A stretch of DNA of 64,000 nucleotides from the sequence record MN850609.1. The stretch is one strand, 5' to 3'. The stretch is from Escherichia phage dhaeg. Below are positions 1 through 63,218 of the stretch, piece after piece; position 1 is the first letter of the stretch; every line of letters begins with the position of its first letter. Under the pieces are notes generated by a model. The model did no database searches. It saw only the letters and a program-made list of their open reading frames with translations, and was not told the origin of the DNA. A program made the position numbers and the translations under genes.

Positions 1-51
1 ACTGATTTCTATTAATGGGCTTCAGACTGAAACTCTGCTTGTCATGTAATA

Positions 52-76
52 TGCTTTAAGAATAGCGTGTTATTAT
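52..76 (+). promoter_or_regulatory. candidate MotA-type middle promoter upstream of gene 31
   Basis: TGCTTTA-like box, about 12 nt spacer, then TATTAT, roughly 30 nt before the gene 31 ATG; coordinates approximate. Confidence 0.3.
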
Positions 77-107
77 TAATCTATCAACAAAACAACATGG
101 ATTAAAT

Positions 108-431
108 ATGGAACTTCCTATTAAAGCGGTCGGAGAATATGTTATTCTCGTTTCCGAACCAAAACAAGCTGGCGATGAAGAAACTACTGCATCTGGTATC
201 GTTATTGGTAAACTTCACCAAGGTGAAATCCCTGAACTTTGTGAAATTTATTCTGTAGGACCTGATGTCCCTGAAGGGTTTTGTGAAGTAGGTGATTTGA
301 CTCCACTTCCTGTTGGTAAGATTGCTAACGTGCCGCATCCTTTAGTTGCATTGGGTATTAAACAGCCTAAAGAAATTAAACAGAAATTCGTTACCTGTCA
401 CTATAAAGCTATTCCGTGTCTTTATAAGTGA
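108..431 (+). CDS. 31: GroES-like co-chaperonin for capsid protein folding (gp31)
   Basis: 107-aa ORF; [16 protein letters not shown]...[17 protein letters not shown] matches remembered T4 gp31; next to rIII as in T4. Confidence 0.9.
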
Positions 432-591
432 TATAAATAATAATATGGATTGGCTGATGTCATACAGAGCTTTGCTGGTGTATGGGGTTAGCTAATCCTA
501 AGCGGTGGACTACAACTGAGAGACTTGCCGAAAGGAAGTGAAATTCAGAAGAACGTGTCCACCAATCTTTATCTCGAATCGAGAATTTAAA

Positions 592-840
592 ATGAACAAA
601 CATCTGAATCACGCTCTTGAACTGCAACGCAACGCTTGGAACAACGGTCACGAAAATTACGGCGCATCTATTGATGTTGAAGCCGAAGCACTGGAAATCC
701 TGCGTTATTTCAAACATCTTAATCCTGCTCAGGCTGCTCTGGCTGCTGAACTGGAAGCAAAAGATGAACTGAAATATGCTAAGCCTTTGGCTTCAGCAGC
801 TCGTAAAGCAGTACGTCATTTTATTATTACCCTGAAGTAA
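592..840 (+). CDS. rIII: lysis-inhibition accessory protein rIII
   Basis: 82-aa product from internal ATG (MNKHLNHALELQRNAWNNGHENYG...), 18 codons into the listed ORF, preceded by gagaatttaaa; size and position match T4 rIII. Confidence 0.85.
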   Translation: MNKHLNHALELQRNAWNNGHENYGASIDVEAEALEILRYFKHLNPAQAALAAELEAKDELKYAKPLASAARKAVRHFIITLK

Positions 841-867
841 AATCGAGGAGCCGTCGAACTGTCTGAT

Positions 868-887
868 TAATGATTTGCGAATCATTA
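868..887 (+). terminator. perfect 8-bp hairpin (taatgatt-tgcg-aatcatta) downstream of rIII
   Basis: Inverted repeat read directly, followed by tagtttt; AT-rich stem so termination efficiency is uncertain. Confidence 0.3.
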
Positions 888-1193
888 TAGTTTTAAGACC
901 CCGGCAGTTTTACGGTGTACCTCTTGAATGTTATTTTATAGCGGCAAGTGCATGCTACCCCGAGGTGATGGCCAATCGGGAGTACGCCTCAAGGCCTATA
1001 TACCCATCAGTATATATCTTATCCTCGAGAAATCGAACCCGGAACCTTTAAGCTAACGGTGCGCAACAGATAAGAGCTATGATGACGAGGTTTATGGTTA
1101 TCCTGTCGTTAAATATCCGAAACCTATGTTCCCCTTGAGGGCTTGCGCAGGCAACGCCAATAAGTCCTGCATTCTAATTTAAGAGATTTAAAA

Positions 1194-1355
1194 ATGGCTA
1201 AGAAAGAAGTTAAAGTAGTTGACGGAACCTCTAAACGCGCTGGTTACAAGCGTGCGTCTAACAAGCGTATCAATCAGGTAGTTGATAAGCTTCAAGCTCG
1301 TGCTCGTGCAGTATTGCGTGCAGATGCTGCTTGCTTCGGTAAAGTTATTGCATAA
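1194..1355 (+). CDS. small basic protein, 53 aa, below the ORF-track size cut-off
   Basis: ATG...TAA ORF translating to MAKKEVKVVDGTSKRAGYKRASNKRINQVVDKLQARARAVLRADAACFGKVIA, immediately followed by a strong terminator; weak SD. Confidence 0.4.
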   Translation: MAKKEVKVVDGTSKRAGYKRASNKRINQVVDKLQARARAVLRADAACFGKVIA

Positions 1356-1360
1356 GTTAT

Positions 1361-1386
1361 GGGACTCTTCGGAGTCCCATTTTTGT
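1361..1386 (+). terminator. rho-independent terminator
   Basis: gggactc-ttcg-gagtccc hairpin followed by atttttgtttct. Confidence 0.7.
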
Positions 1387-1406
1387 TTCTAAATCTTTAA
1401 AAAAGG

Positions 1407-1435
1407 GTATACATCTCCGGTAGGCATGATACTAT
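1407..1435 (+). promoter_or_regulatory. candidate sigma70-type early promoter (GTATAC-17-TACTAT)
   Basis: -35/-10-like hexamers with 17-nt spacing, directly upstream of a leader duplicated at 1874-1923. Confidence 0.4.
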
Positions 1436-1480
1436 AGACATGTACCAAATAATACGAAAACAAACCGGAGAATAAAATGA
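1431..1480 (+). repeat. about 50-bp leader repeat, copy 1
   Basis: 40 of its last 40 nt match 1884-1923 with one mismatch (tgtaccaaataatacgaaaacaaacYggagaataaaatga). Confidence 0.8.
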
Positions 1481-1845
1481 AAATCAATCTTAACTCATAT
1501 ATCAAATGTAAAGACCACGACGGTTATAAAGCTATTGAAACTAAAGAGATGCAATGGCGCTTGTACAAAGAACAATTTGAATTTGTAGGTTGTATGACTC
1601 CTGAAGGTCCTTCCGATGACTTCTCTTGGAAAATTTTGGTAACAAACTTTTTTACTGGTGATACCTACGAACTGAAAACTATCATAACCGGTAAGATTCG
1701 TTGTAAGACCTATGAAGATGAAGAAACCGGTTATTCTGAAGATGTTACATGGTATCAAAATGGTCGTATAACTGCAGATAACTTGATCGAAAAAATGAAA
1801 GCCAAAGGTGAATTAAATTTAGATAATTGGATTAAAGTTGCATAA
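1477..1845 (+). CDS. hypothetical early protein (122 aa)
   Basis: ORF with strong RBS (ggagaataaaATG) behind an early-type promoter; shares a CMTP motif at the same position with the next ORF. Confidence 0.6.
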   Translation: MKINLNSYIKCKDHDGYKAIETKEMQWRLYKEQFEFVGCMTPEGPSDDFSWKILVTNFFTGDTYELKTIITGKIRCKTYEDEETGYSEDVTWYQNGRITADNLIEKMKAKGELNLDNWIKVA

Positions 1846-1849
1846 AACG

Positions 1850-1890
1850 GTTTACTTTGGTACAGGTTGTGTTATTATAGACCTGTACCA
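1850..1890 (+). promoter_or_regulatory. early promoter inside a stem-loop (PeSL-like): GTTTAC-17-TATTAT with 9-bp stem tggtacagg/cctgtacca
   Basis: -35 gtttac and -10 tattat separated by 17 nt; the -10 lies in the loop of a perfect 9-bp inverted repeat. Confidence 0.5.
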
Positions 1891-1923
1891 AATAATACGA
1901 AAACAAACTGGAGAATAAAATGA
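1874..1923 (+). repeat. about 50-bp leader repeat, copy 2
   Basis: Near-identical to 1431-1480; covers the -10 region, 5' UTR, SD and start codon of the downstream ORF. Confidence 0.8.
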
Positions 1924-2285
1924 ACTACATCAACTTCGAACGTAAATATGTTTCTAACGGTATCGCTGGTTCTTCTGAAGTTATTTGCCTGTGGAAACAC
2001 AACAACGGCACAGTGTGCGAAATCGAACAGTGCATGACTCCTAACTACGTTTATATGCGCTTTGAAAATGGTATCACGGTTTCAATCACTATGGAAGGTT
2101 CTACTTTTAAAATCGCTTTAGACGATGATTTCCGTCAACGTGATTTAGGTACCCATCCTTGCTGGAACGGCGCTAATCGTAAGCTTCTGGTTAAAACTTG
2201 GATTCGTCATATCCTGAGCAACCGTGCTAAACCTGAACACCTGGAAGCAATCTTTGATGTAGTTCTGAATGAATTTGATATCTAA
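1920..2285 (+). CDS. hypothetical early protein (121 aa), distant paralogue of the 1477 ORF
   Basis: Same leader/RBS as the 1477 ORF; CMTP motif at residues 38-41 versus 39-42. Confidence 0.6.
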   Translation: MNYINFERKYVSNGIAGSSEVICLWKHNNGTVCEIEQCMTPNYVYMRFENGITVSITMEGSTFKIALDDDFRQRDLGTHPCWNGANRKLLVKTWIRHILSNRAKPEHLEAIFDVVLNEFDI

Positions 2286-2295
2286 TCTTAAAAAT

Positions 2296-2311
2296 GGAGG
2301 CTTCGGCCTCC
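2296..2311 (+). terminator. hairpin ggaggc-ttcg-gcctcc after the 1920 ORF stop
   Basis: 6-bp GC stem with tetraloop 10 nt past the stop codon; short T tract only. Confidence 0.35.
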
Positions 2312-2326
2312 TTTGAGGAAAATATT

Positions 2327-2614
2327 ATGTTTATGACCACTTATTTCGATACTCGTAAAAATTTCTGTGAAGTTGTTTTCTCTAAGGCAGGTAAAGATGT
2401 TCCTGCTGACAAACAGCCTACTCGTGAATCCATTAAGGCCTATGCTGATGTGGTTTGTCCAGTAGAATTCCGTACAGTCAATGGTCGTGACACCCTAGCA
2501 ATCACTAAGCTCAGCCATGATATTAACATCGACCCTAGCGCTGCCCGCGAAGTCAATACTTCTGACATCTACGGTGGTAATGTTAAATCACATGGATTTC
2601 AGATGAGGTTCTAA
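2327..2614 (+). CDS. hypothetical protein (about 95 aa)
   Basis: Internal ATG 11 codons into the listed ORF, preceded by gaggaaaat SD; the listed upstream ATG lies in the hairpin and has no SD. Confidence 0.5.
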   Translation: MFMTTYFDTRKNFCEVVFSKAGKDVPADKQPTRESIKAYADVVCPVEFRTVNGRDTLAITKLSHDINIDPSAAREVNTSDIYGGNVKSHGFQMRF

Positions 2615-2808
2615 TGCAACTATTCTTATCACAAACCGTCCAGTTAAAAGGTGTAGGTATTCCTGGAATGATTTCTAAGGTCTTGCCTGGTTTTAAATTA
2701 GGTAATGCTACTATTAAAGAAGCCTACACCGTCCTGTGGGTCGATGGAACTGAAGACGTTCGTATGGGTTCTGAATTGTCTGTAATCAAATGTTTGAAGC
2801 GAGGATAA
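2614..2808 (+). CDS. hypothetical protein (64 aa)
   Basis: ORF with GAGG SD; start overlaps the upstream stop (TAATG). Confidence 0.5.
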   Translation: MQLFLSQTVQLKGVGIPGMISKVLPGFKLGNATIKEAYTVLWVDGTEDVRMGSELSVIKCLKRG

Positions 2809-2809
2809 T

Positions 2810-3025
2810 ATGGTTAAGAAACTGATTCAGAAATTGTTAGGTACGGAAATGGTTGAAGTGACTTATCGTGTGACTGATGTTTCTCCTCATACGGCAGACC
2901 ATTTAGAACCTTATATCATGACAATTAAAATGCCTAAACATGACGGTGGCTTATCCATTGAAGACCGACTACCTGGTTATGGTCATTGGGCTGATGTGGA
3001 GATTATCAGTGTCAAAGATATTTAA
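2810..3025 (+). CDS. small protein, tandem paralogue A (71 aa)
   Basis: Shares the frame KLxQKLxGxEMVEVTYRVxDxSP...IISVKD with the next ORF; gaggataat SD. Confidence 0.55.
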   Translation: MVKKLIQKLLGTEMVEVTYRVTDVSPHTADHLEPYIMTIKMPKHDGGLSIEDRLPGYGHWADVEIISVKDI

Positions 3026-3034
3026 GGAACCTTC

Positions 3035-3247
3035 ATGATTAATAAATTATTTAAAAAGCTGTTTGGTTTGGAAATGGTTGAAGTGACTTATCGTGTTATT
3101 GATTTATCACCGCCATATGCTTGCGATGAAGATGCTATTAAAACTGTTGTTATGCGAAAAACATATCGCGGGCGGTCAATTAAAGAAAGATTACCGGACC
3201 ATGGCATGTGGTATGCAACCAAGATTATAAGTGTCAAAGATGTCTGA
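3035..3247 (+). CDS. small protein, tandem paralogue B (70 aa)
   Basis: Paralogue of 2810..3025 with conserved N- and C-terminal segments. Confidence 0.55.
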   Translation: MINKLFKKLFGLEMVEVTYRVIDLSPPYACDEDAIKTVVMRKTYRGRSIKERLPDHGMWYATKIISVKDV

Positions 3248-3698
3248 GTTAGAGATAAGAAGTAACTTTCCGTGGCCATCATGCGCATTAAGTAACTTTG
3301 CTAAATGGCCTTTCGTTATGGATGGTATCCAATTCGGTGGGCTCGAAGGATTCCTCCAAGGATGTAAGGTGAAAAATGTTGAACAGCAAAGACGTATATT
3401 TAGGATGTCCGGGTTGGACGCGCAAAAAGCTGGACGAGCTTATGCTAGAGCTCAGGACCGTGGCACGTTGTTCTGGCTTGGAACCCCGTTTTCAAGATAT
3501 TCCGAAGCATGGAAAGAGCTTTACGAAAGTGCGTATTTTGAAGCAGCGCTCCAGAACAAAGGATTTCGCGATGCGTTACAAGCCACTAAAGGTAAGGTTT
3601 TAAAGCATTCAATGGCAAGCCACCTAAAAGAATGTGATACAATACTAACTGAAAAAGAGTTTATCGACATCCTAAACAAATTGAGAGATTTATTATGA
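3240..3698 (+). CDS. NADAR/YbiA-like (DUF1768-type) domain protein
   Basis: LSNFAKWPFVMDGIQF...EGFLQ and W-x3-YESAYFEAALQNKGFRDALQATKGKVLKHS resemble the remembered E. coli YbiA/NADAR core (FSNFAAWPIKVDGKTW...SEHYFQ); start overlaps the upstream stop. Confidence 0.55.
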   Translation: MSELEIRSNFPWPSCALSNFAKWPFVMDGIQFGGLEGFLQGCKVKNVEQQRRIFRMSGLDAQKAGRAYARAQDRGTLFWLGTPFSRYSEAWKELYESAYFEAALQNKGFRDALQATKGKVLKHSMASHLKECDTILTEKEFIDILNKLRDLL

Positions 3699-4333
3699 AA
3701 CCAGTTATCTTAACAGATATCGATGGAGTATGTTTAAGTTGGCAGTCCGGCTTGCCTTATTTCGCACAGAAATATAATTTGCCTTTAGAACATATTTTGA
3801 ATATGATTCAGGACGAACGTTTCTTATCTCCAGGCGAACTGTTTAATTGTGACGACGAATTAGGCGCACGTTTAATCGAGAAGTATAACCAGTCAGATTT
3901 TATTCGTTATCTGTCCCCTTACATGGACGCATTAAAACACATCAACAAGCTCAAAAAAGACTTCGATTTTGTAGCCGTGACTGCGCTAGGCGACTCAATT
4001 GATGCCCTGCTGAATAGACAATTCAATTTGAATGCTTTGTTCCCTGGCGCATTCAAGGAGATTCTGATGTGTGGTCATTCAGAATCAAAAGAAGACCTGT
4101 TCATAAGAGCTAAAAATACGTACGGCAAACGTATTAAGTTTTATGTCGATGATTTGGCTCACCACTGTGATGCTGCATCTAATATTCTCATGGATATCCA
4201 AGTTTATTGGTTAGCCCGTGGTGAACGCGACTTTAAACCTAATTTAGCCGTAAAGGTTAATTCATGGGACGATATCGCAGCTATCGAATCCCTTCGTAAT
4301 AATGCAGCAGTTGAATGGATTGCTCGAGGTTAA
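3695..4333 (+). CDS. HAD-superfamily hydrolase (putative phosphatase/nucleotidase)
   Basis: N-terminal ILTDIDGV (HAD motif I DxDG[TV]) and C-terminal YVDDLAHH acidic motif; ATGA overlap with the NADAR-like gene. Confidence 0.5.
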   Translation: MKPVILTDIDGVCLSWQSGLPYFAQKYNLPLEHILNMIQDERFLSPGELFNCDDELGARLIEKYNQSDFIRYLSPYMDALKHINKLKKDFDFVAVTALGDSIDALLNRQFNLNALFPGAFKEILMCGHSESKEDLFIRAKNTYGKRIKFYVDDLAHHCDAASNILMDIQVYWLARGERDFKPNLAVKVNSWDDIAAIESLRNNAAVEWIARG

Positions 4334-4334
4334 T

Positions 4335-4607
4335 ATGTTTGTTGTTCATACAATTTCGGACCATGGCCCTACCACTACAATGGATTATGGTCACGTCAAT
4401 CAGTTCTTTCGTCATCAACCTTTATTTAGGATTGCCAAAGAAAATCCTTTATTTAAAGAATGTGTGGAGCAAGGGTTTATTTACATCAGCAAATACGATG
4501 TAAATATGTTTTCCACAGGCAATAATAGAATGATTACCTACAATAAACGCCTTGACTTGCTGTTAGAAGAAGTGGCGTATAATAGAAATCAATCCGGAAG
4601 AAGGTAA
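4335..4607 (+). CDS. hypothetical protein (about 90 aa)
   Basis: Internal ATG 11 codons into the listed ORF, immediately after the upstream TAA. Confidence 0.45.
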   Translation: MFVVHTISDHGPTTTMDYGHVNQFFRHQPLFRIAKENPLFKECVEQGFIYISKYDVNMFSTGNNRMITYNKRLDLLLEEVAYNRNQSGRR

Positions 4608-4610
4608 ATT

Positions 4611-6116
4611 ATGATTTTAGATATTTTGAACGAAATTGCTGCTATCGATTCTACTAAAGCTAAAGAAGCTATTATTGCTCGTGAAAAGGATAACGAGCTT
4701 CTGAAACGTGTTTATCATATGGCTTATACCCGTCGTCTGAACTACGGTATTAAAAAGTGGCCAGAACCTGGATTTACGTCTCAATCCTTTGGTATGATTA
4801 CACTTGAAGACCTTCTTGATTTCGCTGAGTTCACACTAGCAACCCGTAAGATTACAGGTAATGCTGCTATTGAAGAACTTGCTCAAATTATTGCTGATGC
4901 CAAGGGTCCTGACGCTGAGGTATTACGTCGCGTAATGATGCGTGACCTTGAATGTGGTGCATCGATTTCTATTGCCAACAAGGTTTGGAAAGGTTTAATC
5001 CCTGAACAACCTCAAATGTTGGCTAGTTCTTATGACGAAGCTCTAATTAAGAAAAATATTAAATGGCCAGCGTTCGCTCAATTAAAAGCTGACGGTGCTC
5101 GTTGTTTTGCTGAAGTTCGTAACGATGGGGTAACATTCCTTACTCGTGGTGGTAATGAATATCAAGGGCTTACTAAGCTTGCAGCCGAACTTATTAAAAT
5201 GACTGAAGAAGCTCGTCAGCGCCATCCTAATGGTGTTATGATTGACGGCGAATTAGTTTACCATACACCTAAAGTAGAACCTAAAGCATCTAATGATTTG
5301 TTTAGTATGTTTGATGAGGAACTTCCTGAATTAAGTAAGGCTAAGGAATTCCAAACCGTAGCTGATCGTTCTACGTCAAATGGCTTGGCTAATAAAGCCC
5401 TCCAAGGAACTATTACTCCGGCTGAAGCTGATGGTATGGTATTACAGGCATGGGACTTTGTTCCACTGGATGAAGTTTATTCTGAAGGCAAAATTAAAGG
5501 TCAAAAATACGATGTTCGTTTAGCGGCATTAGTACAAATGGCTGAAGGTTTTACACGTGTCGAGCCTATCGAAACGCAATGGGTTAATAATCTTGACGAA
5601 GCTAAAGTCGTTTATAAGAAATATGTCGACCAAGGTCTGGAAGGTATTATCCTTAAGAACATGGACTCCTACTGGGAAAACCGCCGTTCTAAGAATCTTA
5701 TCAAGTTCAAAGAAGTAATTGATATCGCTTTAGAAGTGGTGGGTTATTATGAACACTCGAAGGACCCTAACAAACTTGGTGGTGTCGAGCTAGTATCGCG
5801 GTGTCGTCGAATTACATCCGACTGTGGTTCAGGCTTTAAAGATACTACCCATAAGAAAGATAAATCAGGTAAAAAGGTATTGATTCCATTGGAAGACCGT
5901 CCTGATTTAGACCGTGAACTTCTTATGAAACAAGCTCGTGAAGGTAAGTTGATTGGACGTATTGCTGACTGTGAATGTAATGGTTGGGTTCATTCTAAAG
6001 GACGTACAGATACTGTAGGTATTTTCCTTCCAATTATTAAAGGTTGGCGTTTCGATAAAACAGAAGCTGATACATTTGAAGATGTATTTGGTGATTGGTC
6101 TCAAACTGGACTATAA
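4611..6116 (+). CDS. 30: ATP-dependent DNA ligase (gp30)
   Basis: 501 aa; adenylation motif I lysine in FAQLKADGARCF (KxDG); size and position as T4 gene 30. Confidence 0.9.
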   Translation: MILDILNEIAAIDSTKAKEAIIAREKDNELLKRVYHMAYTRRLNYGIKKWPEPGFTSQSFGMITLEDLLDFAEFTLATRKITGNAAIEELAQIIADAKGPDAEVLRRVMMRDLECGASISIANKVWKGLIPEQPQMLASSYDEALIKKNIKWPAFAQLKADGARCFAEVRNDGVTFLTRGGNEYQGLTKLAAELIKMTEEARQRHPNGVMIDGELVYHTPKVEPKASNDLFSMFDEELPELSKAKEFQTVADRSTSNGLANKALQGTITPAEADGMVLQAWDFVPLDEVYSEGKIKGQKYDVRLAALVQMAEGFTRVEPIETQWVNNLDEAKVVYKKYVDQGLEGIILKNMDSYWENRRSKNLIKFKEVIDIALEVVGYYEHSKDPNKLGGVELVSRCRRITSDCGSGFKDTTHKKDKSGKKVLIPLEDRPDLDRELLMKQAREGKLIGRIADCECNGWVHSKGRTDTVGIFLPIIKGWRFDKTEADTFEDVFGDWSQTGL

Positions 6117-6338: not shown

Positions 6339-8399
6339 ATGACCGAACAATTGAATGAGGTGTTTGAGTCCGAAGGCACCCTGCCTACTGTAAACTTAAA
6401 CCCAAAACTTAAAGTACCGCAGATTTGGAAGATTGGCGACGCCGAATCCCAATTAGTGGCCCGTATGGTATCTTATGCCTCTGAAGGCGATGCTATTAAA
6501 CAGGTTAAATTAGGTGATAAATACGCCCATGTTATCCTTATGAGCCTTTCAGCTAAAGGTTCTCCGGCCGAACTTAAAGGTGGCTTAGGCCCTACTCCTA
6601 TTGATGCTATTAATACCATTTTCGACGTAGTATTCGAACAAGTTAAAAAGCTTCGTATGGATGCTGTGATGTTCCGTTTTCCAACCAAGAAAATGAAAGG
6701 GCAAGGACCTATTGTCCAACGGATTATCCAACGTTTGGTAGCACAGAAAACCGGTGGACGTTTTAAAGTAGTTCCGGCTATGTACCAATTTACCGGTAAA
6801 CATACTTATATCCTAGTAGTTCGTAAACAAGCTGATATCGAAGATATCAAAGGTATGCCTGGAATTAATGCCGAATTGTATACTAAGGTAGATTCTGATG
6901 TTGGTGAAGTTTATATTTCTAAAAAAGAAGGCCTGCAGGTTACTAAAGAAACTGCTATTGCCGGCAGTATTGCTAAAGTTGAAGAACGTCGCACTGATAA
7001 AATGGTTATAACCAAGACTAAGATTTCTCGTCGCGCTATTGCAGCAAGCCAGTCTTTAGAATCCTATCGTAATGAAAGTGAACTGTTTAAGAAATATGAA
7101 GCCACTGCCGCTGATTTTAATAAACCGGCAACAGCTCCATTAATCCCTGATGCCCAAGAAATGGTTACTAATAACAATTCTCCTGCGGCTAAAAATAAGG
7201 TTGCTAATATAGTAGCTGAAGGCACTGCTGAAGAGTTGCATTACGATTATAAAATGTTTCCTCTTCACGGTATAGGTGAAATCCAAGAGAAAATTAAAGA
7301 GAGAATCCTTACGGCCATCAAAAACGAACCTTTGACATCTGTTAAAGCTCTAGAAAAATATGCCTCTGTTATTAATACCGTTTTCGAAGAATACAAAGGT
7401 GAATGGCTGGCTAAGCATAACAAAACTCGTAAAGGTCAGCCTGATGACGTCTGGAATGAATTAACCGAGTCCAAGTGGAAAGCAGCCAAGACCAAGTTCA
7501 TTAAAAAACGTGTGTATAGTTTTGCTGGTGTAGGTGGTGGTATTATGGTTGATATTACTTTAGGTCATAGTGCAGATAAATACACCCCTTCTCAAAAACG
7601 TGGTATTCGTGAATATTGTGGCTCCGGATATGGCGATATCAATAACCTTCTTTTAGGACGATATAATCCTCAGAACTATGAGGTTATGAGCGAAAAAGAT
7701 ATCGAATCTGCAGTTAATAATTTGGATTCTGCTTTTGAAAACGGTGATAGATTACCTGAAGGCATTACTGTTTATCGTGCACAGAGTATGACGTGGGCCA
7801 TATATAATGCTTTAGTCAAAAATAAAGTATTCTATTTTAGAAACTTTGTATCCACTTCACTGACTCCTATTATTTTCGGCCGTTTTGGTGTTACTCATGC
7901 GGGTGTGGGTCTTTTAGAGCCTGAAGTTAGAGCCGAACTTACCGTAGATAAAAATGATGAAGGTTATACTAAGGTCCAAGGTTCCGGCGACAAGTTGGTT
8001 AAAGTTGGTTGGGCTATTGATGGGGCTTCTAAGGTTAACGTAGTATTCCCTGGGCAACTTGGCATTGCTACTGAAGCTGAAATCATTCTCCCGCGTGGAC
8101 TAATGGTAAAAATTAATAAAATAACAGATGCATCCAATAATGACGGTATAATATCCAACAATACAAAACTCATTCAAGCTGAAGTTATGACAACAGATGA
8201 GCTTCAAGAGTCAGTGGTATATGATGGTGATGTACTAATGGAAACTGGTGAATTGGTTGTATACCAAGATGACTTCGATACTTCCGAAAGCCCTGTATCT
8301 TTTGATTCATTTGTTAAATCTACACGGTTTGACGTACTGCCTCTTTTGGCTTCATGCATAGACCTCTATGACATCCCAGAAAAATTCATCCAAGGGTAA
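6339..8399 (+). CDS. alt: Alt-type ADP-ribosyltransferase, paralogue 1 (packaged, injected)
   Basis: 686 aa (T4 Alt about 682); C-terminal R-S-ExE triad (TVYRAQ / FVSTSL / ATEAEIILPRG); N-terminal LNE motif consistent with gp21 processing; position between 54 and 30 as in T4. Confidence 0.85.
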   Translation: MTEQLNEVFESEGTLPTVNLNPKLKVPQIWKIGDAESQLVARMVSYASEGDAIKQVKLGDKYAHVILMSLSAKGSPAELKGGLGPTPIDAINTIFDVVFEQVKKLRMDAVMFRFPTKKMKGQGPIVQRIIQRLVAQKTGGRFKVVPAMYQFTGKHTYILVVRKQADIEDIKGMPGINAELYTKVDSDVGEVYISKKEGLQVTKETAIAGSIAKVEERRTDKMVITKTKISRRAIAASQSLESYRNESELFKKYEATAADFNKPATAPLIPDAQEMVTNNNSPAAKNKVANIVAEGTAEELHYDYKMFPLHGIGEIQEKIKERILTAIKNEPLTSVKALEKYASVINTVFEEYKGEWLAKHNKTRKGQPDDVWNELTESKWKAAKTKFIKKRVYSFAGVGGGIMVDITLGHSADKYTPSQKRGIREYCGSGYGDINNLLLGRYNPQNYEVMSEKDIESAVNNLDSAFENGDRLPEGITVYRAQSMTWAIYNALVKNKVFYFRNFVSTSLTPIIFGRFGVTHAGVGLLEPEVRAELTVDKNDEGYTKVQGSGDKLVKVGWAIDGASKVNVVFPGQLGIATEAEIILPRGLMVKINKITDASNNDGIISNNTKLIQAEVMTTDELQESVVYDGDVLMETGELVVYQDDFDTSESPVSFDSFVKSTRFDVLPLLASCIDLYDIPEKFIQG

Positions 8400-8402
8400 A
8401 TA

Positions 8403-10526
8403 ATGGAAAATTTAAACGAAGTTTTTGATAGTGATTCCGCTAAAAACTATCCAGTAACAAATCTTAAACCAGGCTCCGGTATCCCACAGATTTTCTCTAT
8501 TCAAGCACCAGGTAACGATAACCTGGTTGCTCGTATGGTATCTTATGCGTCTCAAGGAGACGCTATTAAAATGGTTAAGCCCGGCGACAAATACGTTCAT
8601 GTTATTTTAATGAGTTTGTCGAGCAAGGGTGCTCCAGCTGAACTAAAAGGTGGCCTTGGTTCCGACCCACTTGGTACATTGAATACTATTTTCGATACGA
8701 TATATGAACAAGTAAATAAACTTAAAATGGATGCGGTTTTGTTCCGTTTCCCTACCAAGAAAATGAAAGGTAAGGGCCCTACTGTTCAGCGTGTATTAGC
8801 TCGTTTGGCGATGGCACGTACCGGTGGTAAGTTTAAAGTTGTCGATAGCATGTTCCAGTTTAGTGGTAAACATACATACGTTCTTTTAGCACGTCGTGGC
8901 ACTAATATCGAAGATATCAAGGGTATGCCTGAAATTGATGCGGACCTTTATACCAAGGTTGAGTCTAAAGTCGGTGAAGTTTATGTTTCTAAGAAAACCG
9001 GCCAGGCCGTAAGTAAGGTCGAAGCCGTAGCAGCATCTATTGCACAGGTTGAAGAGAAACGTACCGATAAGGCTGTTATCTCTCGTACTAAAATTTCCCG
9101 TCGTATGGCTGCAGCAGCGCAGTATTCTACTGCCGAACCTGAAACTTTATCACCTAAAGAATTGCAGGTTTATAACGAGTTTGAAGCTTCCGTCCCTGTT
9201 CACTCGGCCGAAGGCCCTGAGAACGAAGGTATTGAACAAATTAGCCAGAACTTTAAAAAAGGTGCTATTACTAAAATGCGTCAGGCCTCTCAGTTTAAAT
9301 CTAAGAGTGAGGACCTTGCCAACTTTAGATACACCATTGCTCTCACACACGCTTTAATGACTGATAGTAAATTTAAACTAAATTATGCTAATAGAGATAA
9401 ACAAGGGTTTGAAATTTACTCTAATAATATGGCATTTTTTAATACGGAAGTCGATAGACTTTTAAGCGGCCTTTCTCAAATCAATACTACCAATAGTCTG
9501 GATATTATTAAGAGAATTGTTAATAACCTGAGTGCCCGTTTTCAGGGGTCTCCTTCAGAGAAAGCATCCCGAATTGCTTTCGCTATGGAAGCCGTTTATA
9601 AACTGATTAACGATTCTATTAGCGATGCATATGCTTATTCAGGCGAGCTCATTAAACCTAAGGGCTTGACCAAAGACGAAAGTAATGCCATTATTGAATA
9701 TTGTGCGGCTGAATATGCTCCTATGAACTTATTCCTTTTAGGTAAACCTGAATCCGAAAACAATACAACAGCTATTAAATTGATTAAGGATTTAGACTCA
9801 GCATTTACCAAGGGTATTAAACTTCCTAAGGGTACTATTTTGTATCGTGGTCAGGATTTACCATACAAAATTCTGCGCCATAATATTGATAACAAAACCT
9901 TTTACTTTAAGAACTTTGTATCCGCTTCATTAAAGCCTAATATCTTTGGTGAATTTGGTAAAAATTATATGGCCCTCGACAACCAAGCAGTTTTTGTTGG
10001 TGATGAAGGTTCTTTATCCTCCGCCGATGAGTTGTTTAAATTGGCCAGTGGTAGTTCATCTGACGTAGGTGAAGTTGATGATGAAGAGGTAGAATGGGAA
10101 GAAGACGAGTTTGGTAATCCAATTGCACCTGAAGGCCCTGCAGACAGGATTGCTGAAATTGGTATGGTTATTCGAGGTGCTGAAGCAGTTAAAGTTATCG
10201 CTCCTGGTGACCTTACAGAATATGCCGAAGAAGCGGAAATTATCCTTCCGCGCGGATTATTGTTGAAGGTTGATAAAGTAGCAGCTTTTGCTATGAATGA
10301 TAGGGTATCTCACAAATACCTTATGGAAGCTACAGTGACATCTCCTTCAGAACTCAGTGAGTCCGTTTACGATGGTGACCATCTGATGGAAACCGGCGAA
10401 GTTAAATTGATGAATGGGTTTAAAGAATTCCTAGTTTCAGAATCTGTTTCAGAAAGTAACGAGGCTATGGAAATCCTTGCTGCATCTTTGGACATCTCTT
10501 CTTTACCAAATAAATTCAAAATGTAG
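8403..10526 (+). CDS. Alt-type ADP-ribosyltransferase, paralogue 2
   Basis: 707 aa; first about 180 aa strongly similar to paralogue 1; own R-S-ExE triad (ILYRGQ / FVSASL / AEEAEIILPRG); divergent centre and an acidic insertion (DDEEVEWEEDEFG). Confidence 0.8.
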   Translation: MENLNEVFDSDSAKNYPVTNLKPGSGIPQIFSIQAPGNDNLVARMVSYASQGDAIKMVKPGDKYVHVILMSLSSKGAPAELKGGLGSDPLGTLNTIFDTIYEQVNKLKMDAVLFRFPTKKMKGKGPTVQRVLARLAMARTGGKFKVVDSMFQFSGKHTYVLLARRGTNIEDIKGMPEIDADLYTKVESKVGEVYVSKKTGQAVSKVEAVAASIAQVEEKRTDKAVISRTKISRRMAAAAQYSTAEPETLSPKELQVYNEFEASVPVHSAEGPENEGIEQISQNFKKGAITKMRQASQFKSKSEDLANFRYTIALTHALMTDSKFKLNYANRDKQGFEIYSNNMAFFNTEVDRLLSGLSQINTTNSLDIIKRIVNNLSARFQGSPSEKASRIAFAMEAVYKLINDSISDAYAYSGELIKPKGLTKDESNAIIEYCAAEYAPMNLFLLGKPESENNTTAIKLIKDLDSAFTKGIKLPKGTILYRGQDLPYKILRHNIDNKTFYFKNFVSASLKPNIFGEFGKNYMALDNQAVFVGDEGSLSSADELFKLASGSSSDVGEVDDEEVEWEEDEFGNPIAPEGPADRIAEIGMVIRGAEAVKVIAPGDLTEYAEEAEIILPRGLLLKVDKVAAFAMNDRVSHKYLMEATVTSPSELSESVYDGDHLMETGEVKLMNGFKEFLVSESVSESNEAMEILAASLDISSLPNKFKM

Positions 10527-21448: not shown

Positions 21449-22861
21449 ATGGCTTTTACTGTAAGTATAGCCGGCACAGCGTCTATTAAAATAGGCGAAA
21501 GTGCTAACTACACTGCTACCGCAACAGGTGCAGCTGTAGAAGGAACCATTACATATGTATGGTCTATTGATGGTGCTTCTAATCCAGAAGCAACCAATGT
21601 TTTGAAATATACAGGTGCTGCACCTGTAGGTAAGAAAGTTTTAAAAGTAGTAGCAACTTCTACTCCGGCTGAAGGCGAACCTGAGGTAGCTGAAGATACT
21701 TTTGAAGTTACCGTAGCTAATAAGACCATGTCTATTTCTTTGGCTTTGGACCCTATTTCTGTTTCTAAAGAAGTTGGCCAATCTCAAGTTGTTACTGCTA
21801 ACGTGACGGGTGCACCTGCAGGTGCAACAATTGCTTATGTTTGGAAACGTAACACCAGCGTAATCTCTGGCCAAACTGGTAAAACTATTACTGTAACCGA
21901 AGCCGCGGAAGCAAATTACACGTTGAACTGTGAAGTTACTGTTACCGCCCCTGAATATAACCCGGGTACCGCTACTAAAGGTGCTGCGGTAACTTTTGTT
22001 AAGAAAACTATATCAGGTGTTTCTGTTACTTTAACACCGGCCTCAATTAGTACAGAGAAAGACTCATCTGCACAGTTTAAAGCGGATGTAGTCGGCGCTC
22101 CTTCCGGCGTAAATGCAACTTATTCTTGGAAGAAAAACGGTTCTATTATTCCGGGCGAAAGCAGTAATACTCTTGCTGTTGATACGTCTACAATAGGTTC
22201 TTACTCTATTGAAGTTTCGGTACTCCTAAAAGGTACGGATTATAATGATTTAACCGTTACCAAAACAGGAAGTGTAACAATTACTAAAAAGACTATGGCA
22301 GGTGTTTCTGTTAATTTAACGCCTGCTTCTATTACTGTCTCTGAAGGAATCCCGGCTTCTTTTAAAGCCACGGTAGTCGGTGCGCCTAGTGGTGCTACTT
22401 TTGCTTATTCTTGGAAGAAAGATGGTTCACCTGTTGTGGGTGCTACGGATACATTAGTAATTGACACAAGCGCTGAAGGTTCACAGGTTATTGAAGTTTC
22501 TGTTGTGGTTTCGGCTACCGACTATAATTCTGTGACCGTCACAAAATCCGGTAATGTAACAATTACGGCTAAAGTCGCTCCTGAACCAGAGGGCGAACTA
22601 CCTTACGTTCATCCGCTACCAGTTCGTAATTCAGCTTATATTTGGTGTGGTTGGTGGGTTATGGACGAAATTCAGAAAATGACCCTTGAAGGCAAAGACT
22701 GGAAAACTGACGAACCTGATAGTGAATATTATCTCCATCGTTATACCCTTCAAAAAATGGTAGCCGATTATCCTGAGGTTGATGTACAGGAATCTCGTAA
22801 TGGTAGAATTATTCACAGAACCGCTTTGGATGCTGGAATTATTTACGATTACGTTTATTAA
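21449..22861 (+). CDS. hoc: Hoc-like capsid decoration protein with four Ig-like (BIG2-type) repeats
   Basis: 470 aa; four tandem ~90-aa repeats each containing Y(S/V)WK(K/R)(N/D)(G/T)S; C-terminal YIWCGWWVMDEI...DW...YPEVDVQESRNGRII shared with the 23135 ORF. Confidence 0.75.
   Translation: MAFTVSIAGTASIKIGESANYTATATGAAVEGTITYVWSIDGASNPEATNVLKYTGAAPVGKKVLKVVATSTPAEGEPEVAEDTFEVTVANKTMSISLALDPISVSKEVGQSQVVTANVTGAPAGATIAYVWKRNTSVISGQTGKTITVTEAAEANYTLNCEVTVTAPEYNPGTATKGAAVTFVKKTISGVSVTLTPASISTEKDSSAQFKADVVGAPSGVNATYSWKKNGSIIPGESSNTLAVDTSTIGSYSIEVSVLLKGTDYNDLTVTKTGSVTITKKTMAGVSVNLTPASITVSEGIPASFKATVVGAPSGATFAYSWKKDGSPVVGATDTLVIDTSAEGSQVIEVSVVVSATDYNSVTVTKSGNVTITAKVAPEPEGELPYVHPLPVRNSAYIWCGWWVMDEIQKMTLEGKDWKTDEPDSEYYLHRYTLQKMVADYPEVDVQESRNGRIIHRTALDAGIIYDYVY

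Positions 22862-61712: not shown

Positions 61713-61720
<8 letters not shown>
60959..61720 (+). CDS. 1: deoxynucleoside monophosphate kinase gp1
   Basis: 253 aa (T4 gp1 241); P-loop GIKRSGKDT at the N-terminus. Confidence 0.85.
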
Positions 61721-62604
<884 letters not shown>

Positions 62605-62615
62605 TTTAAAAATGT

Positions 62616-62657
62616 TTTACAAAGGGCTTTAGTGATGATACTATAGGCCTATCAAAA
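62616..62657 (+). repeat. promoter-containing repeat, copy 1 (TTTACA-17-TACTAT)
   Basis: About 42 nt with 3 mismatches to 62967-63008; contains -35/-10-like hexamers and a short stem. Confidence 0.6.
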
Positions 62658-62670
62658 ACAAACTAACCAA

Positions 62671-62961
62671 ATGGAAATCAAAATGAAAACTTATCAAGAA
62701 TTTAGTAAATCCCAAAAAGTGGCTCCTATCACTGAAGCCAGTGTTATGAGTGAAGTTATAGCCCTAAACAAAGGCCGTGAAGGTAAACCGGTTATCGGTC
62801 TTAATGGTGATGAACTTAAAGGTACTGTTTATCTGGGCGACGGTTACCATGCTAAAAAAGACGGTGGGAGCATTGTTATTTCCCCGGCTCAAGAATCTTC
62901 TGTAATGAAAACCGTTTACATCGCCACCAAGCACTTTGATATTTTGAAAAAAGCACTTTAA
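62671..62961 (+). CDS. hypothetical protein (96 aa)
   Basis: ORF downstream of the repeat promoter; a second in-frame ATG lies at 62683. Confidence 0.5.
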   Translation: MEIKMKTYQEFSKSQKVAPITEASVMSEVIALNKGREGKPVIGLNGDELKGTVYLGDGYHAKKDGGSIVISPAQESSVMKTVYIATKHFDILKKAL

Positions 62962-62966
62962 AGTTA

Positions 62967-63008
62967 TTTACAACGGGCTCTAGTGATGATACTATAGCCC
63001 TATCAAAA
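62967..63008 (+). repeat. promoter-containing repeat, copy 2 (TTTACA-17-TACTAT) with gggct/agccc stem
   Basis: Near-identical to 62616-62657. Confidence 0.6.
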
Positions 63009-63031
63009 CAAATGAGTGATTGGAGAATAAA

Positions 63032-63217: not shown

Positions 63218-63218
63218 A

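What the first reader, a model, noticed from the sequence alone, without database searches (positions are those of the whole stretch)
1400..1923. Duplicated promoter / stem-loop / leader cassettes (PeSL-like) in front of divergent paralogous early genes
A ~50-bp block containing the -10 region, leader, SD and start codon occurs twice (1431-1480 and 1874-1923, one mismatch in the 40-nt core), each in front of a different ~120-aa ORF. The second promoter's -10 sits in the loop of a perfect 9-bp stem. A second repeat pair occurs at 62616-62657 and 62967-63008. Such cassettes are proposed in T4-type phages to mediate modular gene shuffling.
Basis: partly seen in the sequence, partly recalled or inferred. 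Interest (0 to 1): 0.45.

Follow-up and report, generated by a model that had tools for sequence, protein, structure and literature searches.

The report
Repeated early-promoter cassettes flanking swappable phage genes
In this T4-like (Dhakavirus) phage, two small early genes are each flanked by near-identical promoter/leader/ribosome-site cassettes that sit where related phages have swapped, lost or gained genes, a known kind of element (PeSL) seen here in a new phage group.

Summary
Positions 1427-1481 and 1870-1924 are 93% identical over 55 nt (40/41 in the core). Positions 62598-62657 and 62949-63008 are 83% identical over 60 nt.

The window is a JS98-like Dhakavirus. Pair 1 flanks gene 30.8 and precedes 30.7. 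Pair 2 flanks an IPI-type internal-protein gene.

Each cassette has a T4-type early promoter (-35, TGn, -10), a roughly 35-nt leader and a GGAG ribosome site. Three of them carry GGAGAATAAAA, the published strong RegB cleavage consensus.

The stem at the second promoter is 11 bp, not 9, with the -10 in its loop. At the 30.7 promoter, distant T4-like genera keep this hairpin with at least five unrelated arm sequences.

Cassette edges coincide with gene-content breakpoints:
- 30.8 occurs as two alleles (39% aa identity) that diverge from codon 3 to the stop codon.
- JS10 lacks 30.8 and 30.7, with its left junction inside cassette 1.
- Klebsiella phages (L060, Mineola) carry one hybrid cassette where relatives carry cassette-30.8-ORF-cassette.
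- IP genes are swapped between the pair 2 cassettes.

The "paralogous genes" claim fails. Verdict: PeSL-type regulatory and recombination cassettes, a new member of a known kind.

Separately, window 942-1076 holds a strongly covarying ~135-nt structured RNA with no Rfam match.

The parts
1359..1391 (+). Intrinsic terminator after gene 30.9: 9-bp stem with a UUCG loop (1359-1380) followed by a T-run. This is the upstream stem-loop of cassette 1.
   Evidence: Terminator scan. Fold -16.2 kcal/mol, z = -4.3. Conserved in JS98, IME08, WG01, T4 and TH44.
1392..1435 (+). Cassette 1 promoter: A/T tract, -35 GTATAC/TATACA (1407-1413), TGn (1427-1429), -10 TACTAT (1430-1435). Predicted transcription start near 1442.
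   Evidence: Consensus scan. Conserved in 7 Dhakavirus genomes. Activity not tested.
1414..1421 (+). Anti-SD segment TCTCCGGT inside the promoter spacer. It pairs with 1464-1471 (ACCGGAGA, which contains the SD GGAG at 1467-1470) only in transcripts that read through from upstream.
   Evidence: MFE structure. Duplex -16.2 kcal/mol, p = 0.0005 vs shuffles. SD fully paired in the read-through RNA; the own-promoter RNA has no stable structure (MFE -0.9). Pair 1419-1466 is G-C here, G.U in most Dhakaviruses and A-U in phage C6. T4 has an analogous UUCCUUUGU/ACAAAGGAG helix.
1427..1481 (+). Repeat copy 1: extended -10, 5' leader, SD GGAG (1467-1470) and ATG (1477) of gene 30.8.
1477..1845 (+). Gene 30.8 (122 aa, Pfam PF06019), allele type A. 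This is the gene bracketed by the two cassettes.
   Evidence: 39% aa identity to the JS98/T4 type B allele. About 58% nt identity to type B between flanks that are 96-100% identical.
1846..1919 (+). Cassette 2: -35 GTTTAC (1850-1855), TGn (1870-1872), -10 TATTAT (1873-1878), leader, SD GGAG (1910-1913). Predicted transcription start near 1885.
   Evidence: 27-29/30 identical upstream of the -10 in Mosigvirus and Gaprivervirus, 23/30 in T4.
1856..1892 (+). Promoter-straddling hairpin: arms 1856-1866 and 1882-1892 (11 bp perfect), with the -10 in the loop.
   Evidence: z = -4.1. Spacer-leader complementarity has p <= 0.0065 in 13 of 15 representative 30.7 promoters, with at least 5 unrelated arm sequences.
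1870..1924 (+). Repeat copy 2, ending in the ATG (1920) of gene 30.7.
1920..2285 (+). Gene 30.7 (121 aa, Pfam PF06919). Highly conserved across genera and not a paralogue of 30.8.
62598..62682 (+). IP-locus cassette A: A/T tract, -35 TTTACA (62616-62621), TGn, -10 TACTAT (62639-62644), imperfect stem 62623-62632 / 62641-62650, and the leader up to the ATG at 62683.
   Evidence: In JS10, IME08 and WG01 the stem is a perfect GGTCTATAG/CTATAGACC.
62683..62961 (+). Internal head protein gene (IPI family, PF11634, nuclease inhibitor; begins with the MKTYQEF capsid-targeting leader), bracketed by cassettes A and B.
   Evidence: Its body is replaced in JS98, IME08, JS10 and WG01.
62949..63031 (+). 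IP-locus cassette B: -35 TTTACA (62967-62972), -10 TACTAT (62990-62995), stem GGGCTCTAG 62975-62983 / CTATAGCCC 62992-63000, SD GGAG 63022-63025. It lies upstream of the trna.4-like gene (ATG 63032).
   Evidence: WG01 has an unrelated perfect stem, GATAGGGTA/TACCCTATC, at the same position.

Best explanation
These are PeSL-type composite regulatory cassettes of a T4-like phage. I read them as working in three ways.

1. Expression (inferred from sequence and from T4 knowledge). Host sigma70 RNA polymerase starts at a strong UP/-35/TGn/-10 early promoter. This makes a roughly 35-nt leader whose ribosome site, GGAGAATAAAA, is also the consensus target of the phage RegB/S1 endoribonuclease. The gene would therefore be expressed in an immediate-early burst and then shut off.

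2. Insulation (structure shown by comparison, function inferred). A hairpin is built around each promoter. Its 5' arm lies upstream of the transcription start, in the -35/-10 spacer. Its 3' arm lies in the leader. The hairpin can therefore form only in RNA that reads through from upstream genes. In that RNA it attenuates transcription or, in cassette 1 and in many relatives of cassette 2, buries the Shine-Dalgarno sequence. Each gene would then be translated essentially from its own promoter.

3. Recombination (shown by comparison). The cassettes are the best-conserved sequence in a region of fast-diverging small genes, and neighbouring copies are nearly identical. They therefore serve as portable homology for the phage recombination system. 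Genes lying between two cassettes are exchanged for divergent alleles, deleted or inserted as units that keep their own promoter and ribosome site.
For: Anatomy:
- Promoter elements, TGn, SD and ATG are read directly from the sequence.
- T4 early promoters are described as UP/-35/TGn/-10 promoters (PMC2988021).
- The strong RegB consensus is GG*AGRAYARAA (PMC3014915). The 15-mer GGAGAATAAAATGAA occurs 3 times against 0.01 expected.

Hairpins:
- z = -4.1 for cassette 2.
- At the orthologous 30.7 promoter, 13 of 15 representative promoters from T4-like lineages show spacer-leader complementarity with p <= 0.0065.
- The arm sequences are unrelated: GGTACAGG/CCTGTACC; TTGGTGTAGGAGTA/TACTCTTACACCAA; GCTGATTGAGTGT/ACACTCAATCAGC; CTCCGTTGTAT/ATACAACGGAG and its compensated form CTCCGAGGTTT/AAACCTCGGAG, both containing the SD; TTGGGTGGT/ACCACCCAA.
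- Non-Watson-Crick pairs inside stems are G.U on the sense strand (L024, L050-52, L057, Dhakavirus cassette 1). This favours an RNA-level role.
- Cassette 1's SD is fully paired in read-through RNA, while the own-promoter RNA has no stable structure.

Recombination:
- The two 30.8 alleles are about 58% nt identical between flanks that are 96-100% identical. Divergence starts at codon 3 and ends at the stop codon.
- Allele distribution is discordant with flank similarity and crosses genera.
- The JS10 deletion has its left junction after TACTATAGAC in cassette 1.
- Phage C6 carries an extra ORF plus terminator inserted exactly between the terminator and promoter of cassette 1.
- L060, like Mineola, has 30.9 followed directly by 30.7 through one hybrid cassette. 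Related L059/LilPanda have cassette-30.8-ORF-cassette. The two HSPs overlap by 83 nt in the cassette, and the crossover lies in ACGGAGAATAAAA.
- L053 carries a chimera of the cassette 2 promoter and the cassette 1 leader.
- The IP gene body is replaced between cassette A (plus the targeting-peptide codons) and cassette B in four relatives.
- Neighbouring cassettes are homogenised within lineages. Cassette 1 vs cassette 2 is 28/30 in this phage, 27/30 in Jiaodavirus, and 12-13/30 in T4 and TH44.
Against: - No transcription, RegB cleavage, translation or recombination was measured. Promoters are consensus matches only.
- No Dhakavirus among the 40 best records shows a precise cassette-to-cassette deletion of 30.8. 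The clean example comes from another genus.
- Breakpoints at gene edges are also what selection for intact genes would leave. Other breakpoints in the same region do not involve cassettes: 940/1078, 2314 and 3019/3224.
- The two copies of pair 1 show independent substitutions in different genomes. There is no sign of ongoing gene conversion within Dhakavirus.
- The window's cassette 2 hairpin does not touch the SD, and SD accessibility is unchanged between the two RNAs.
- No hairpin is followed by a U-run, so intrinsic termination is not evident.
- Cassette 1 anti-SD pairing is not significant in most other genera.
- The pair 2 stems are imperfect (z = -2.1 and -1.75).
Confidence: 0.75

Rival explanations
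1. The similarity is only shared function. All strong early promoters and RegB-sensitive ribosome sites in this phage converge on the same consensus. On this view the repeats say nothing about recombination, and breakpoints sit at gene edges because only intact genes survive.
For: - The 15-nt SD-ATG module equals the RegB/S1 consensus and is shared by cassettes from both loci.
- TGATACTATAG is shared by three promoters.
- Non-cassette breakpoints exist in the same region.
- No concerted substitutions are seen within Dhakavirus.
Against: - The 25-nt leader segment between the start site and the SD (TGTACCAAATAATACGAAAACAAAC) is identical in cassettes 1 and 2. It is absent from the pair 2 cassettes of the same genome.
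- It is also absent from the orthologous cassette 1 of T4 and TH44. It is therefore a copied sequence, not a consensus.
- Other lineages have homogenised cassettes 1 and 2 with different sequences.
- L060 and L053 carry hybrid cassettes whose junctions lie inside the repeat.
Confidence: 0.12
2. The repeat is the remnant of a tandem duplication of one ancestral gene together with its promoter. On this view 30.8 and 30.7 are paralogues whose coding parts diverged while the regulatory parts were kept.
For: - The ORF lengths are almost equal (122 and 121 aa).
- A CMTP tetrapeptide sits at nearly the same position in both.
Against: - There is no detectable homology: BLASTP E = 0.036, separate Pfam families, hhalign probability 0.06%.
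- CMTP is YMTP or WVSP in other 30.7 proteins and ETTE in type B 30.8.
- Both genes already exist in T4 and TH44, where the two leaders are unrelated (12-13/30). The leader identity is therefore far younger than the genes.
Confidence: 0.03
3. The inverted repeats act on DNA rather than RNA. They could be a cruciform or a binding site for a dimeric protein over the -10 that tunes or shuts off the early promoter. They could also mark a recombination site, as the PeSL authors speculated.
For: - The arms always bracket the -10, and the left arm abuts the -35 in every lineage.
- No hairpin is followed by a U-run.
- In this phage the cassette 2 hairpin does not mask the SD.
- PMC2839356 raises a stem-loop-binding recombination protein as a possibility.
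Against: - The arm sequences differ completely between lineages. That argues against one sequence-specific binding protein.
- Imperfections inside stems are G.U on the sense strand rather than A.C. A DNA cruciform would not show that asymmetry, but the count is only about 5 to 0-1.
- In about ten of the lineages sampled the 3' arm is the SD itself.
Confidence: 0.1

Closest known systems
PeSL (promoter-early stem-loop) cassettes of T4-type phages: RB49/phi1 (Arbiol et al. 2010, PMC2839356); T4/PST and KVP40/nt-1 (Comeau et al. 2014, PMC4122927)
   Same: [quoted passage not shown]
- A/T tract and a sigma70-type early promoter. The T4/PST consensus is TTTACW-N17-TAYWAT; here the promoters are TTTACT-N16-TATTAT and TTTACA-N17-TACTAT.
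- A stem-loop between -35 and -10 or overlapping the -10, then SD and ATG.
- Clustered in hyperplastic regions next to small genes of unknown function.
- Located at insertion, deletion and replacement boundaries. Crossovers lie between the -10 and the ATG.
   Different: - Described here in Dhakavirus. The literature mentions only unspecified 'PeSL-like sequences' near gene 43 of JS98.
- The stems are not the G-tract/C-tract type of RB49.
- Pair 1 shares the leader rather than the whole promoter.
- Mini-circles and promoter or terminator activity were not tested.
- Added here: the same promoter keeps its hairpin through complete arm replacement across genera, and in many lineages the 3' arm is the SD.
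Internal-protein (IP) locus polymorphism of T-even phages (Repoila et al. 1994, as cited in PMC4122927)
   Same: Pair 2 brackets an IPI-family internal protein gene between 57B and trna.4. Relatives carry different IP genes between the same conserved flanks, and the 5' flank extends into the capsid-targeting codons (MKTYQEF).
   Different: I could not read the 1994 paper, so the comparison rests on how the PeSL papers describe it. This is a Dhakavirus locus with one IPI-type gene and one 69-aa IP-like ORF.
T4 genes e, soc, 49 and I-TevI: ribosome site sequestered in read-through RNA, with a promoter inside the hairpin (reviewed in PMC3014915)
   Same: The 5' strand of the inhibitory helix lies upstream of a promoter embedded in the structure. 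Only promoter-proximal transcripts have a free SD. This geometry is seen at cassette 1 here (1414-1421 with 1464-1471), at T4 P30.8, and at the 30.7 promoter of many distant relatives.
   Different: The known cases use late (or middle) promoters and provide temporal control. Here the embedded promoter is an early sigma70-type promoter, so the likely effect is insulation from upstream transcription rather than delay. This is untested. The window's cassette 2 hairpin does not include the SD.
Morons of lambdoid phages
   Same: A single gene travelling with its own promoter and terminator.
   Different: Moron flanks are not conserved repeats and are not thought to mediate the mobility (discussion in PMC2839356). 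Here the flanks are the homology.

Membership tests
PeSL cassette | [quoted passage not shown] | tested here: met
   30.9 stop 1355 to ATG 1477; 30.8 stop 1845 to ATG 1920; stop 62604 to ATG 62683; stop 62961 to ATG 63032. SD GGAG lies at 1467, 1910 and 63022.
PeSL cassette | Sigma70-like early promoter (-35, about 17-nt spacer, -10) preceded by an A/T-rich tract | tested here: met
   Sequence match only. Cassette 1 has a weaker -35 (TATACA). Cassette 2 has only 5 nt between the stop codon and the -35, so it has almost no A/T tract. Activity was not measured.
PeSL cassette | Stable stem-loop upstream of, within or overlapping the promoter | tested here: met
   Cassette 1 has an upstream terminator hairpin (z = -4.3) plus a spacer-SD helix (p = 0.0005). 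Cassette 2 has an 11-bp stem around the -10 (z = -4.1). Pair 2 has imperfect 9-10-bp stems (z = -2.1 and -1.75) that are perfect in relatives.
PeSL cassette | Located in hyperplastic regions among small non-essential genes | tested here: met
   The cassettes lie in the 30.9-30.1 region and the IP locus. Gene content differs among JS98, JS10, IME08, WG01, C6, PSD9 and CLB_P2.
PeSL cassette | Coincidence with insertion, deletion or replacement boundaries between close relatives | tested here: met
   Not controlled against the general preference of breakpoints for intergenic sites.
PeSL cassette | Recombination between neighbouring cassettes producing deletions or mini-circles | tested here: inconclusive
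   A hybrid single cassette is found in L060/Mineola where L059/LilPanda have two. No such deletion is seen among the 40 best Dhakavirus records. Mini-circles need inverse PCR.
PeSL cassette | Stem-loop acts as a transcription terminator or attenuator; the promoter is active in vivo | not testable with these tools
   Only the 1359-1391 hairpin has a T-run. The promoter-straddling stems are followed by A-rich sequence.
Read-through-specific SD sequestration (T4 e/soc/49/I-TevI type) | SD and/or AUG paired with a segment that lies upstream of an embedded promoter's start site | tested here: met
   Met for cassette 1 and for the 30.7 promoters of L047, L054, L062 and L063. Not met for the window's cassette 2 or for pair 2.
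Read-through-specific SD sequestration (T4 e/soc/49/I-TevI type) | Reduced translation from long transcripts, demonstrated experimentally | not testable with these tools
   No expression data are available.
RegB/S1 strong cleavage site | Intergenic GGAG followed by RAYARAA (consensus GG*AGRAYARAA) | tested here: met
   GGAGAATAAAA occurs at 1467, 1910 and 63022, matching the consensus in PMC3014915. Cleavage was not tested, and no regB gene was looked for in this window.
Paralogous gene pair (30.8 / 30.7) | Detectable sequence or profile homology between the two products | tested here: not met

The most novel reading that the evidence does not exclude
The promoter-straddling stems of PeSLs may be RNA-level insulators under direct selection, not incidental features. 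The 5' arm sits in the -35/-10 spacer. Every read-through transcript would therefore fold into a hairpin that masks or crowds the downstream ribosome and RegB site, while the gene's own transcript is born without it. Each hyperplastic-region gene would then be a self-contained expression unit that can be moved without changing its neighbours' dosage. This would extend the late-gene e/soc/49/I-TevI logic to sigma70 early promoters. It would also explain why the 30.7 promoter has replaced its arms at least five times while keeping the geometry.
Probability: 0.35. Interest if true: 0.55.

Novelty: new member of a known kind. Interest (0 to 1): 0.35.

Why it matters
These cassettes mark where T4-like phages can exchange accessory genes without breaking regulation. 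One exchanged gene is an IPI-type inhibitor of host restriction nucleases.

For therapeutic Dhakaviruses, the cassettes predict which genes are unstable or swappable.

The comparative data also give a concrete, testable reason for the odd placement of hairpins around the -10: read-through-specific masking of the ribosome site.

The unrelated structured RNA at 942-1076 may be the more novel object in this window.

Tried and rejected
- Paralogy of 30.8 and 30.7: rejected.
- Precise cassette-to-cassette deletion of 30.8, or of the IPI gene, in Dhakavirus. I searched with synthetic junction queries. All 40 best records for the 30.8 junction still carry an insert of about 400-440 nt, about 830 nt in phage C6. 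The IP query was uninformative because cassettes A and B cross-align.
- Cassettes at a different locus in other genera. Hits annotated 'baseplate hub subunit' turned out to be mis-annotated 30.7 at the same locus.
- Rfam: no match at gathering threshold for the whole window. Only a chance mir-126 hit (E = 2.7) fell over cassette 2.
- Genome-wide early-promoter census in the window: only four convincing intergenic early promoters were found, so no statistics were possible within the window.
- Intrinsic termination by the promoter-straddling stems: no U-run follows any of them.
- T4 literature on mapped promoters for 30.8 and 30.7: the Miller 2003 review is not held and no TSS dataset was found.
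- For the side RNA: it is not a tRNA, not related to T4 rnaC or rnaD, and the locus is not near oriE.
Full report
**Identity of the window**

Positions 1-5000 match JS98-like T4-type phages of the genus Dhakavirus. The best matches are CLBP2 at 96.9% and JS98 at 97.1%. JS98's annotation places these genes on the window's + strand:
- gene 31 at 108-431
- rIII at 593-840
- 30.9 at 1194-1355
- 30.8 at 1477-1845
- 30.7 at 1920-2285
- 30.6 through 30.1
- DNA ligase (gene 30) at 4611-6116

Positions 61700-64000 are 100% identical to phage dhabil. They hold gene 1, 57A, 57B, an IP-like ORF, an internal head protein gene, trna.4, trna.3 and trna.2.

**The observation**

Both repeat pairs exist.
- 1427-1481 and 1870-1924 are 93% identical over 55 nt. 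From 1441 to 1481 there is one mismatch, C1466 vs T1909.
- 62598-62657 and 62949-63008 are 83% identical over 60 nt.

The stem at the second promoter is 11 bp, not 9: 1856-1866 with 1882-1892. Its 15-nt loop holds TGn and the -10 TATTAT (1873-1878). It folds at -22.5 kcal/mol, z = -4.1.

Pair 1 shares the -10, the whole leader, the SD and the ATG. It does not share the -35 or spacer (14/30 identical). Pair 2 shares the A/T tract, -35, spacer, -10 and about the first 13 transcribed bases.

Sub-modules are shared between pairs. GGAGAATAAAATGAA occurs three times against 0.01 expected. TGATACTATAG occurs three times exactly.

**Anatomy**

*Cassette 1:*
- terminator hairpin 1359-1380 plus T-run (z = -4.3)
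- A/T tract
- -35 TATACA at 1408-1413
- TGa + TACTAT at 1427-1435
- leader, GGAG at 1467-1470, ATG at 1477

*Cassette 2:*
- 30.8 stop at 1843-1845
- GTTTAC at 1850-1855
- TGt + TATTAT at 1870-1878
- leader, GGAG at 1910-1913, ATG at 1920

*Cassettes A and B in the IP locus:* both are TTTACA-N17-TACTAT with TGn. Their 9-10-bp imperfect stems have a 3' arm that overlaps the end of the -10.

This is the T4 'UP/-35/TGn/-10' early-promoter design (PMC2988021). The ribosome site GGAGAATAAAA equals the strong RegB/S1 site consensus GG*AGRAYARAA (PMC3014915).

**The genes**

gp30.8 belongs to PF06019 and gp30.7 to PF06919. The two are not detectably related: BLASTP E = 0.036 and hhalign probability 0.06%. 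The gene between the pair 2 cassettes is an IPI-family internal protein (PF11634, nuclease inhibitor; phrog_4363).

**Breakpoints in relatives**

1. *Allele replacement of 30.8.* The window, CLBP2, IME08, PSD9, C6 and Gaprivervirus TH44 carry allele A. JS98, WG01, Bp7 and T4 carry allele B.
   - The two alleles are 39% identical in protein and about 58% in DNA.
   - The adjoining cassettes are 96-100% identical within Dhakavirus.
   - Divergence starts after ATGAAAA and ends at the stop codon.
   - JS98 has the most similar flanks but the other allele, and both alleles occur in several genera.

2. *JS10 lacks 30.8 and 30.7*. Homology to the window stops at 1439, just after TACTATAGAC. It resumes at 2314, the SD of 30.6, with 12 unrelated nt between.

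3. *Phage C6 carries an extra 118-aa ORF with its own terminator.* It is inserted exactly between the 30.9 terminator and the cassette 1 promoter.

4. *Jiaodavirus-type Klebsiella phages show the clean case.*
   - L059/LilPanda have 30.9-terminator-cassette 1-30.8-ORF-cassette 2-30.7.
   - L060 has a single cassette. The annotated phage Mineola likewise has 30.9 and its terminator followed directly by the 30.7-like gene.
   - L060 aligns to both sides of L059 with an 83-nt overlap inside the cassette.
   - Its cassette is type 1 up to ACGGAGAATAAAA and type 2 afterwards.
   - This matches the RB49 ORF192/phi1 topology. It also matches the crossover zone 'between the -10 and the ATG' reported for PeSL mini-circles.

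5. *L053 has a cassette 2 promoter joined to a cassette 1 leader*.

6. *In the IP locus,* JS98, IME08, JS10 and WG01 are homologous up to 62704-62718. That covers cassette A plus the MKTYQEF codons. Homology resumes from 62960-62987 at cassette B, with different genes between.

Not every breakpoint involves a cassette. The exceptions are 940/1078, 2314 and 3019/3224. No Dhakavirus among the 40 best records has a precise 30.8 deletion.

**History of the repeat**

In T4 and TH44 the leaders of cassettes 1 and 2 are unrelated (12-13/30). The figures are 22/30 in Mosigvirus, 27/30 in Jiaodavirus, 21-22/30 in another lineage (L047, L054) and 28/30 here. In each lineage the shared block has a different sequence.

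The shared block includes the 3' arm of the cassette 2 hairpin, whose 5' partner exists only at cassette 2. The copying therefore probably ran from cassette 2 to cassette 1 (inference).

Within Dhakavirus the two copies carry independent substitutions. The event is therefore old, not ongoing.

**The hairpins**

I collected 30.7 homologues with 45-54% protein identity. Every lineage has an inverted repeat whose 5' arm starts right after the -35 and whose loop holds the -10. The arms are unrelated in sequence.

Complementarity between the spacer and the leader beats 2000 shuffles at p <= 0.0065 in 13 of 15 representative 30.7 promoters. The two exceptions are the recombinant cassettes L053 and L060. 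Most cassette 1 sequences are not significant in the same test, which serves as an internal control.

In one large group the 3' arm is ...ACGGAG, the SD itself. L062 shows a fully compensated variant.

The window's cassette 1 behaves the same way.
- TCTCCGGT (1414-1421) pairs with ACCGGAGA (1464-1471), p = 0.0005.
- Pair 1419-1466 is G-C here, G.U in six other Dhakaviruses and A-U in C6.
- T4's P30.8 has UUCCUUUGU/ACAAAGGAG.

In silico, the SD of cassette 1 is completely paired in read-through RNA. The transcript from its own promoter has no stable structure (MFE -0.9 kcal/mol).

Mismatches within stems are G.U on the sense strand in about five cases, against none or one A.C. This weakly favours an RNA-level role.

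The geometry is that of T4 e, soc, 49 and I-TevI (PMC3014915), but with an early promoter. The window's cassette 2 hairpin does not include the SD, so its role there is open. Attenuation, as shown for one RB49 stem-loop, or RNA end protection are both possible.

**Comparison with known systems**

The PeSL papers define the element as follows:
- upstream stop codon
- A/T tract
- early promoter
- a stem-loop in any of five positions, most often between -35 and -10 or over the -10
- SD and ATG

They place it in hyperplastic regions at indel and replacement boundaries. They also name the IP locus (Repoila 1994) as an earlier example. All sequence-level criteria are met here. The functional criteria (promoter and terminator activity, mini-circles) could not be tested.

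For JS98 the literature mentions only unspecified PeSL-like sequences near gene 43. I found no paper describing these cassettes in Dhakavirus.

**Verdict**

This is a new member of a known kind.

The added value is threefold:
- the hybrid-cassette deletion variant in Klebsiella phages
- the lineage-specific homogenisation of neighbouring cassettes
- the evidence that the promoter-straddling hairpin is maintained by compensatory replacement and often masks the ribosome site

**Side finding**

Window 942-1076, in the rIII-30.9 spacer, is a ~135-nt element.
- It is 92-95% identical in 343 of 400 matching phage records, across genera whose neighbouring proteins are about 50% identical.
- It is precisely absent from T4, WG01 and JS09, and the matches to IME08, Bp7 and PSD9 skip window 941-1077.
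- On 14 distinct sequences it forms 8 helices and 42 pairs, 97.6% paired.
- 19 pairs show compensatory change, against 8.9 +/- 1.7 in shuffles (0/500) and at most 5 when the partners are slid.
- It has no Rfam match.
- It is not a tRNA and is unrelated to T4 rnaC or rnaD.
- It is absent from 185,579 bacterial and archaeal species genomes.

Noticed in passing
window 942-1076 (+), within the rIII-30.9 intergenic region 841-1193: A ~135-nt noncoding element.
- It is 92-95% identical across distant T4-like genera (Dhakavirus, Tequatrovirus PYPS2T, Moonvirus, Jiaodavirus, Enterobacter phages) and 83% identical in Serratia phage Muldoon.
- It is precisely absent from T4, WG01 and JS09, and matches to IME08, Bp7 and PSD9 skip window 941-1077.
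- It folds into 8 helices and 42 pairs. 19 pairs show compensatory changes against 8.9 +/- 1.7 in shuffles (0/500).
- A terminal helix closes the whole insert, and there is a GNRA-capped hairpin with 5 covarying sequences.
- It has no Rfam hit, is not a tRNA, is not related to T4 rnaC or rnaD, and gave no hit in 185,579 bacterial and archaeal genomes.
- It looks like an undescribed, possibly mobile, structured RNA.
   Followed up: partly
window 432-592 (+), gene 31-rIII intergenic: Two strong hairpins fold at -54.3 kcal/mol, z = -6.1. In a 6-genome alignment, helix 505-511/558-564 and its inner helices keep pairing through changes on both sides. The single-stranded stretches (TACAACTGAGAG, AGAAGAACGTG) are invariant. 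There is no Rfam match.
   Followed up: partly
window 841-940 and 1078-1193: The noncoding flanks of the 135-nt element are nearly identical to T4 (by eye). The neighbouring genes are less conserved: rIII is 84% and 30.9 is 71% identical to T4. No ORF is annotated there in T4, JS98 or others. Function unknown.
   Followed up: no
window 47-93 and 63872-63918: A 47-nt repeat (83%) contains a MotA-box middle promoter (ATGCTTTAA ... TATTAT). One copy lies upstream of gene 31, the other after trna.2. In JS98, JS10 and CLB_P2 an extra ORF (orf138) is inserted at 63871-63878, with an 8-nt overlap of the flanking matches. JS98 and JS10 carry another ORF (orf137) at 63964. This resembles the 'PmSL' variant described for phage nt-1.
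   Followed up: partly
window 2810-3025 and 3035-3247: Tandem paralogues of gene 30.4 (71 and 70 aa; the first 77 nt are 78% identical). WG01 also has two copies. JS98, JS10 and Bp7 have one, with breakpoints near 3019 and 3224. This is unequal exchange between gene copies, not cassettes.
   Followed up: partly
window 6339-8399 and 8403-10526: Two adjacent ORFs of about 690-700 aa are related to each other (repeat families at a constant 2070-nt offset, 71-78% identical). JS98 annotates the first as Alt ADP-ribosyltransferase ('alta'), so this is a tandem alt duplication.
   Followed up: no
window 24522-25274 (- strand ORF 24011-25516): Long runs of 9-nt periodic CCN-GGN repeats. In the minus-strand ORF these would encode collagen-like Gly-X-Y repeats in a 501-aa protein among the structural genes.
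   Followed up: no
window 21989-22566 (ORF 21449-22861, +): Three repeat families at 282-285-nt spacing (70-79% identical) lie inside one 470-aa ORF. This implies tandem domains of about 95 aa, as in Ig-like decoration proteins. Not examined.
   Followed up: no
L016 (phage C6) 504-860; L004 (JS10) 2420-2445; L008 (PSD9) about 3340-3360: Further local variants of the same region.
- C6 has an extra 118-aa ORF plus terminator between the 30.9 terminator and cassette 1.
- JS10's junction leader, TATAGACCTATCAA, resembles the IP-locus cassettes (TATAGGCCTATCAA).
- PSD9 and VR5-like phages replace the SD of cassette 2 with AAACCAAAGGATAATAAA.
   Followed up: partly
window 1-5000 versus 61700-64000: The end of the window is 100% identical to phage dhabil (MN850621). 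The start has no match above 97.1% in the same collection. Extrapolated, the start would fall beyond the end of dhabil's 165.6-kb record. Either that record is incomplete or permuted, or the source is a different mosaic phage.
   Followed up: no
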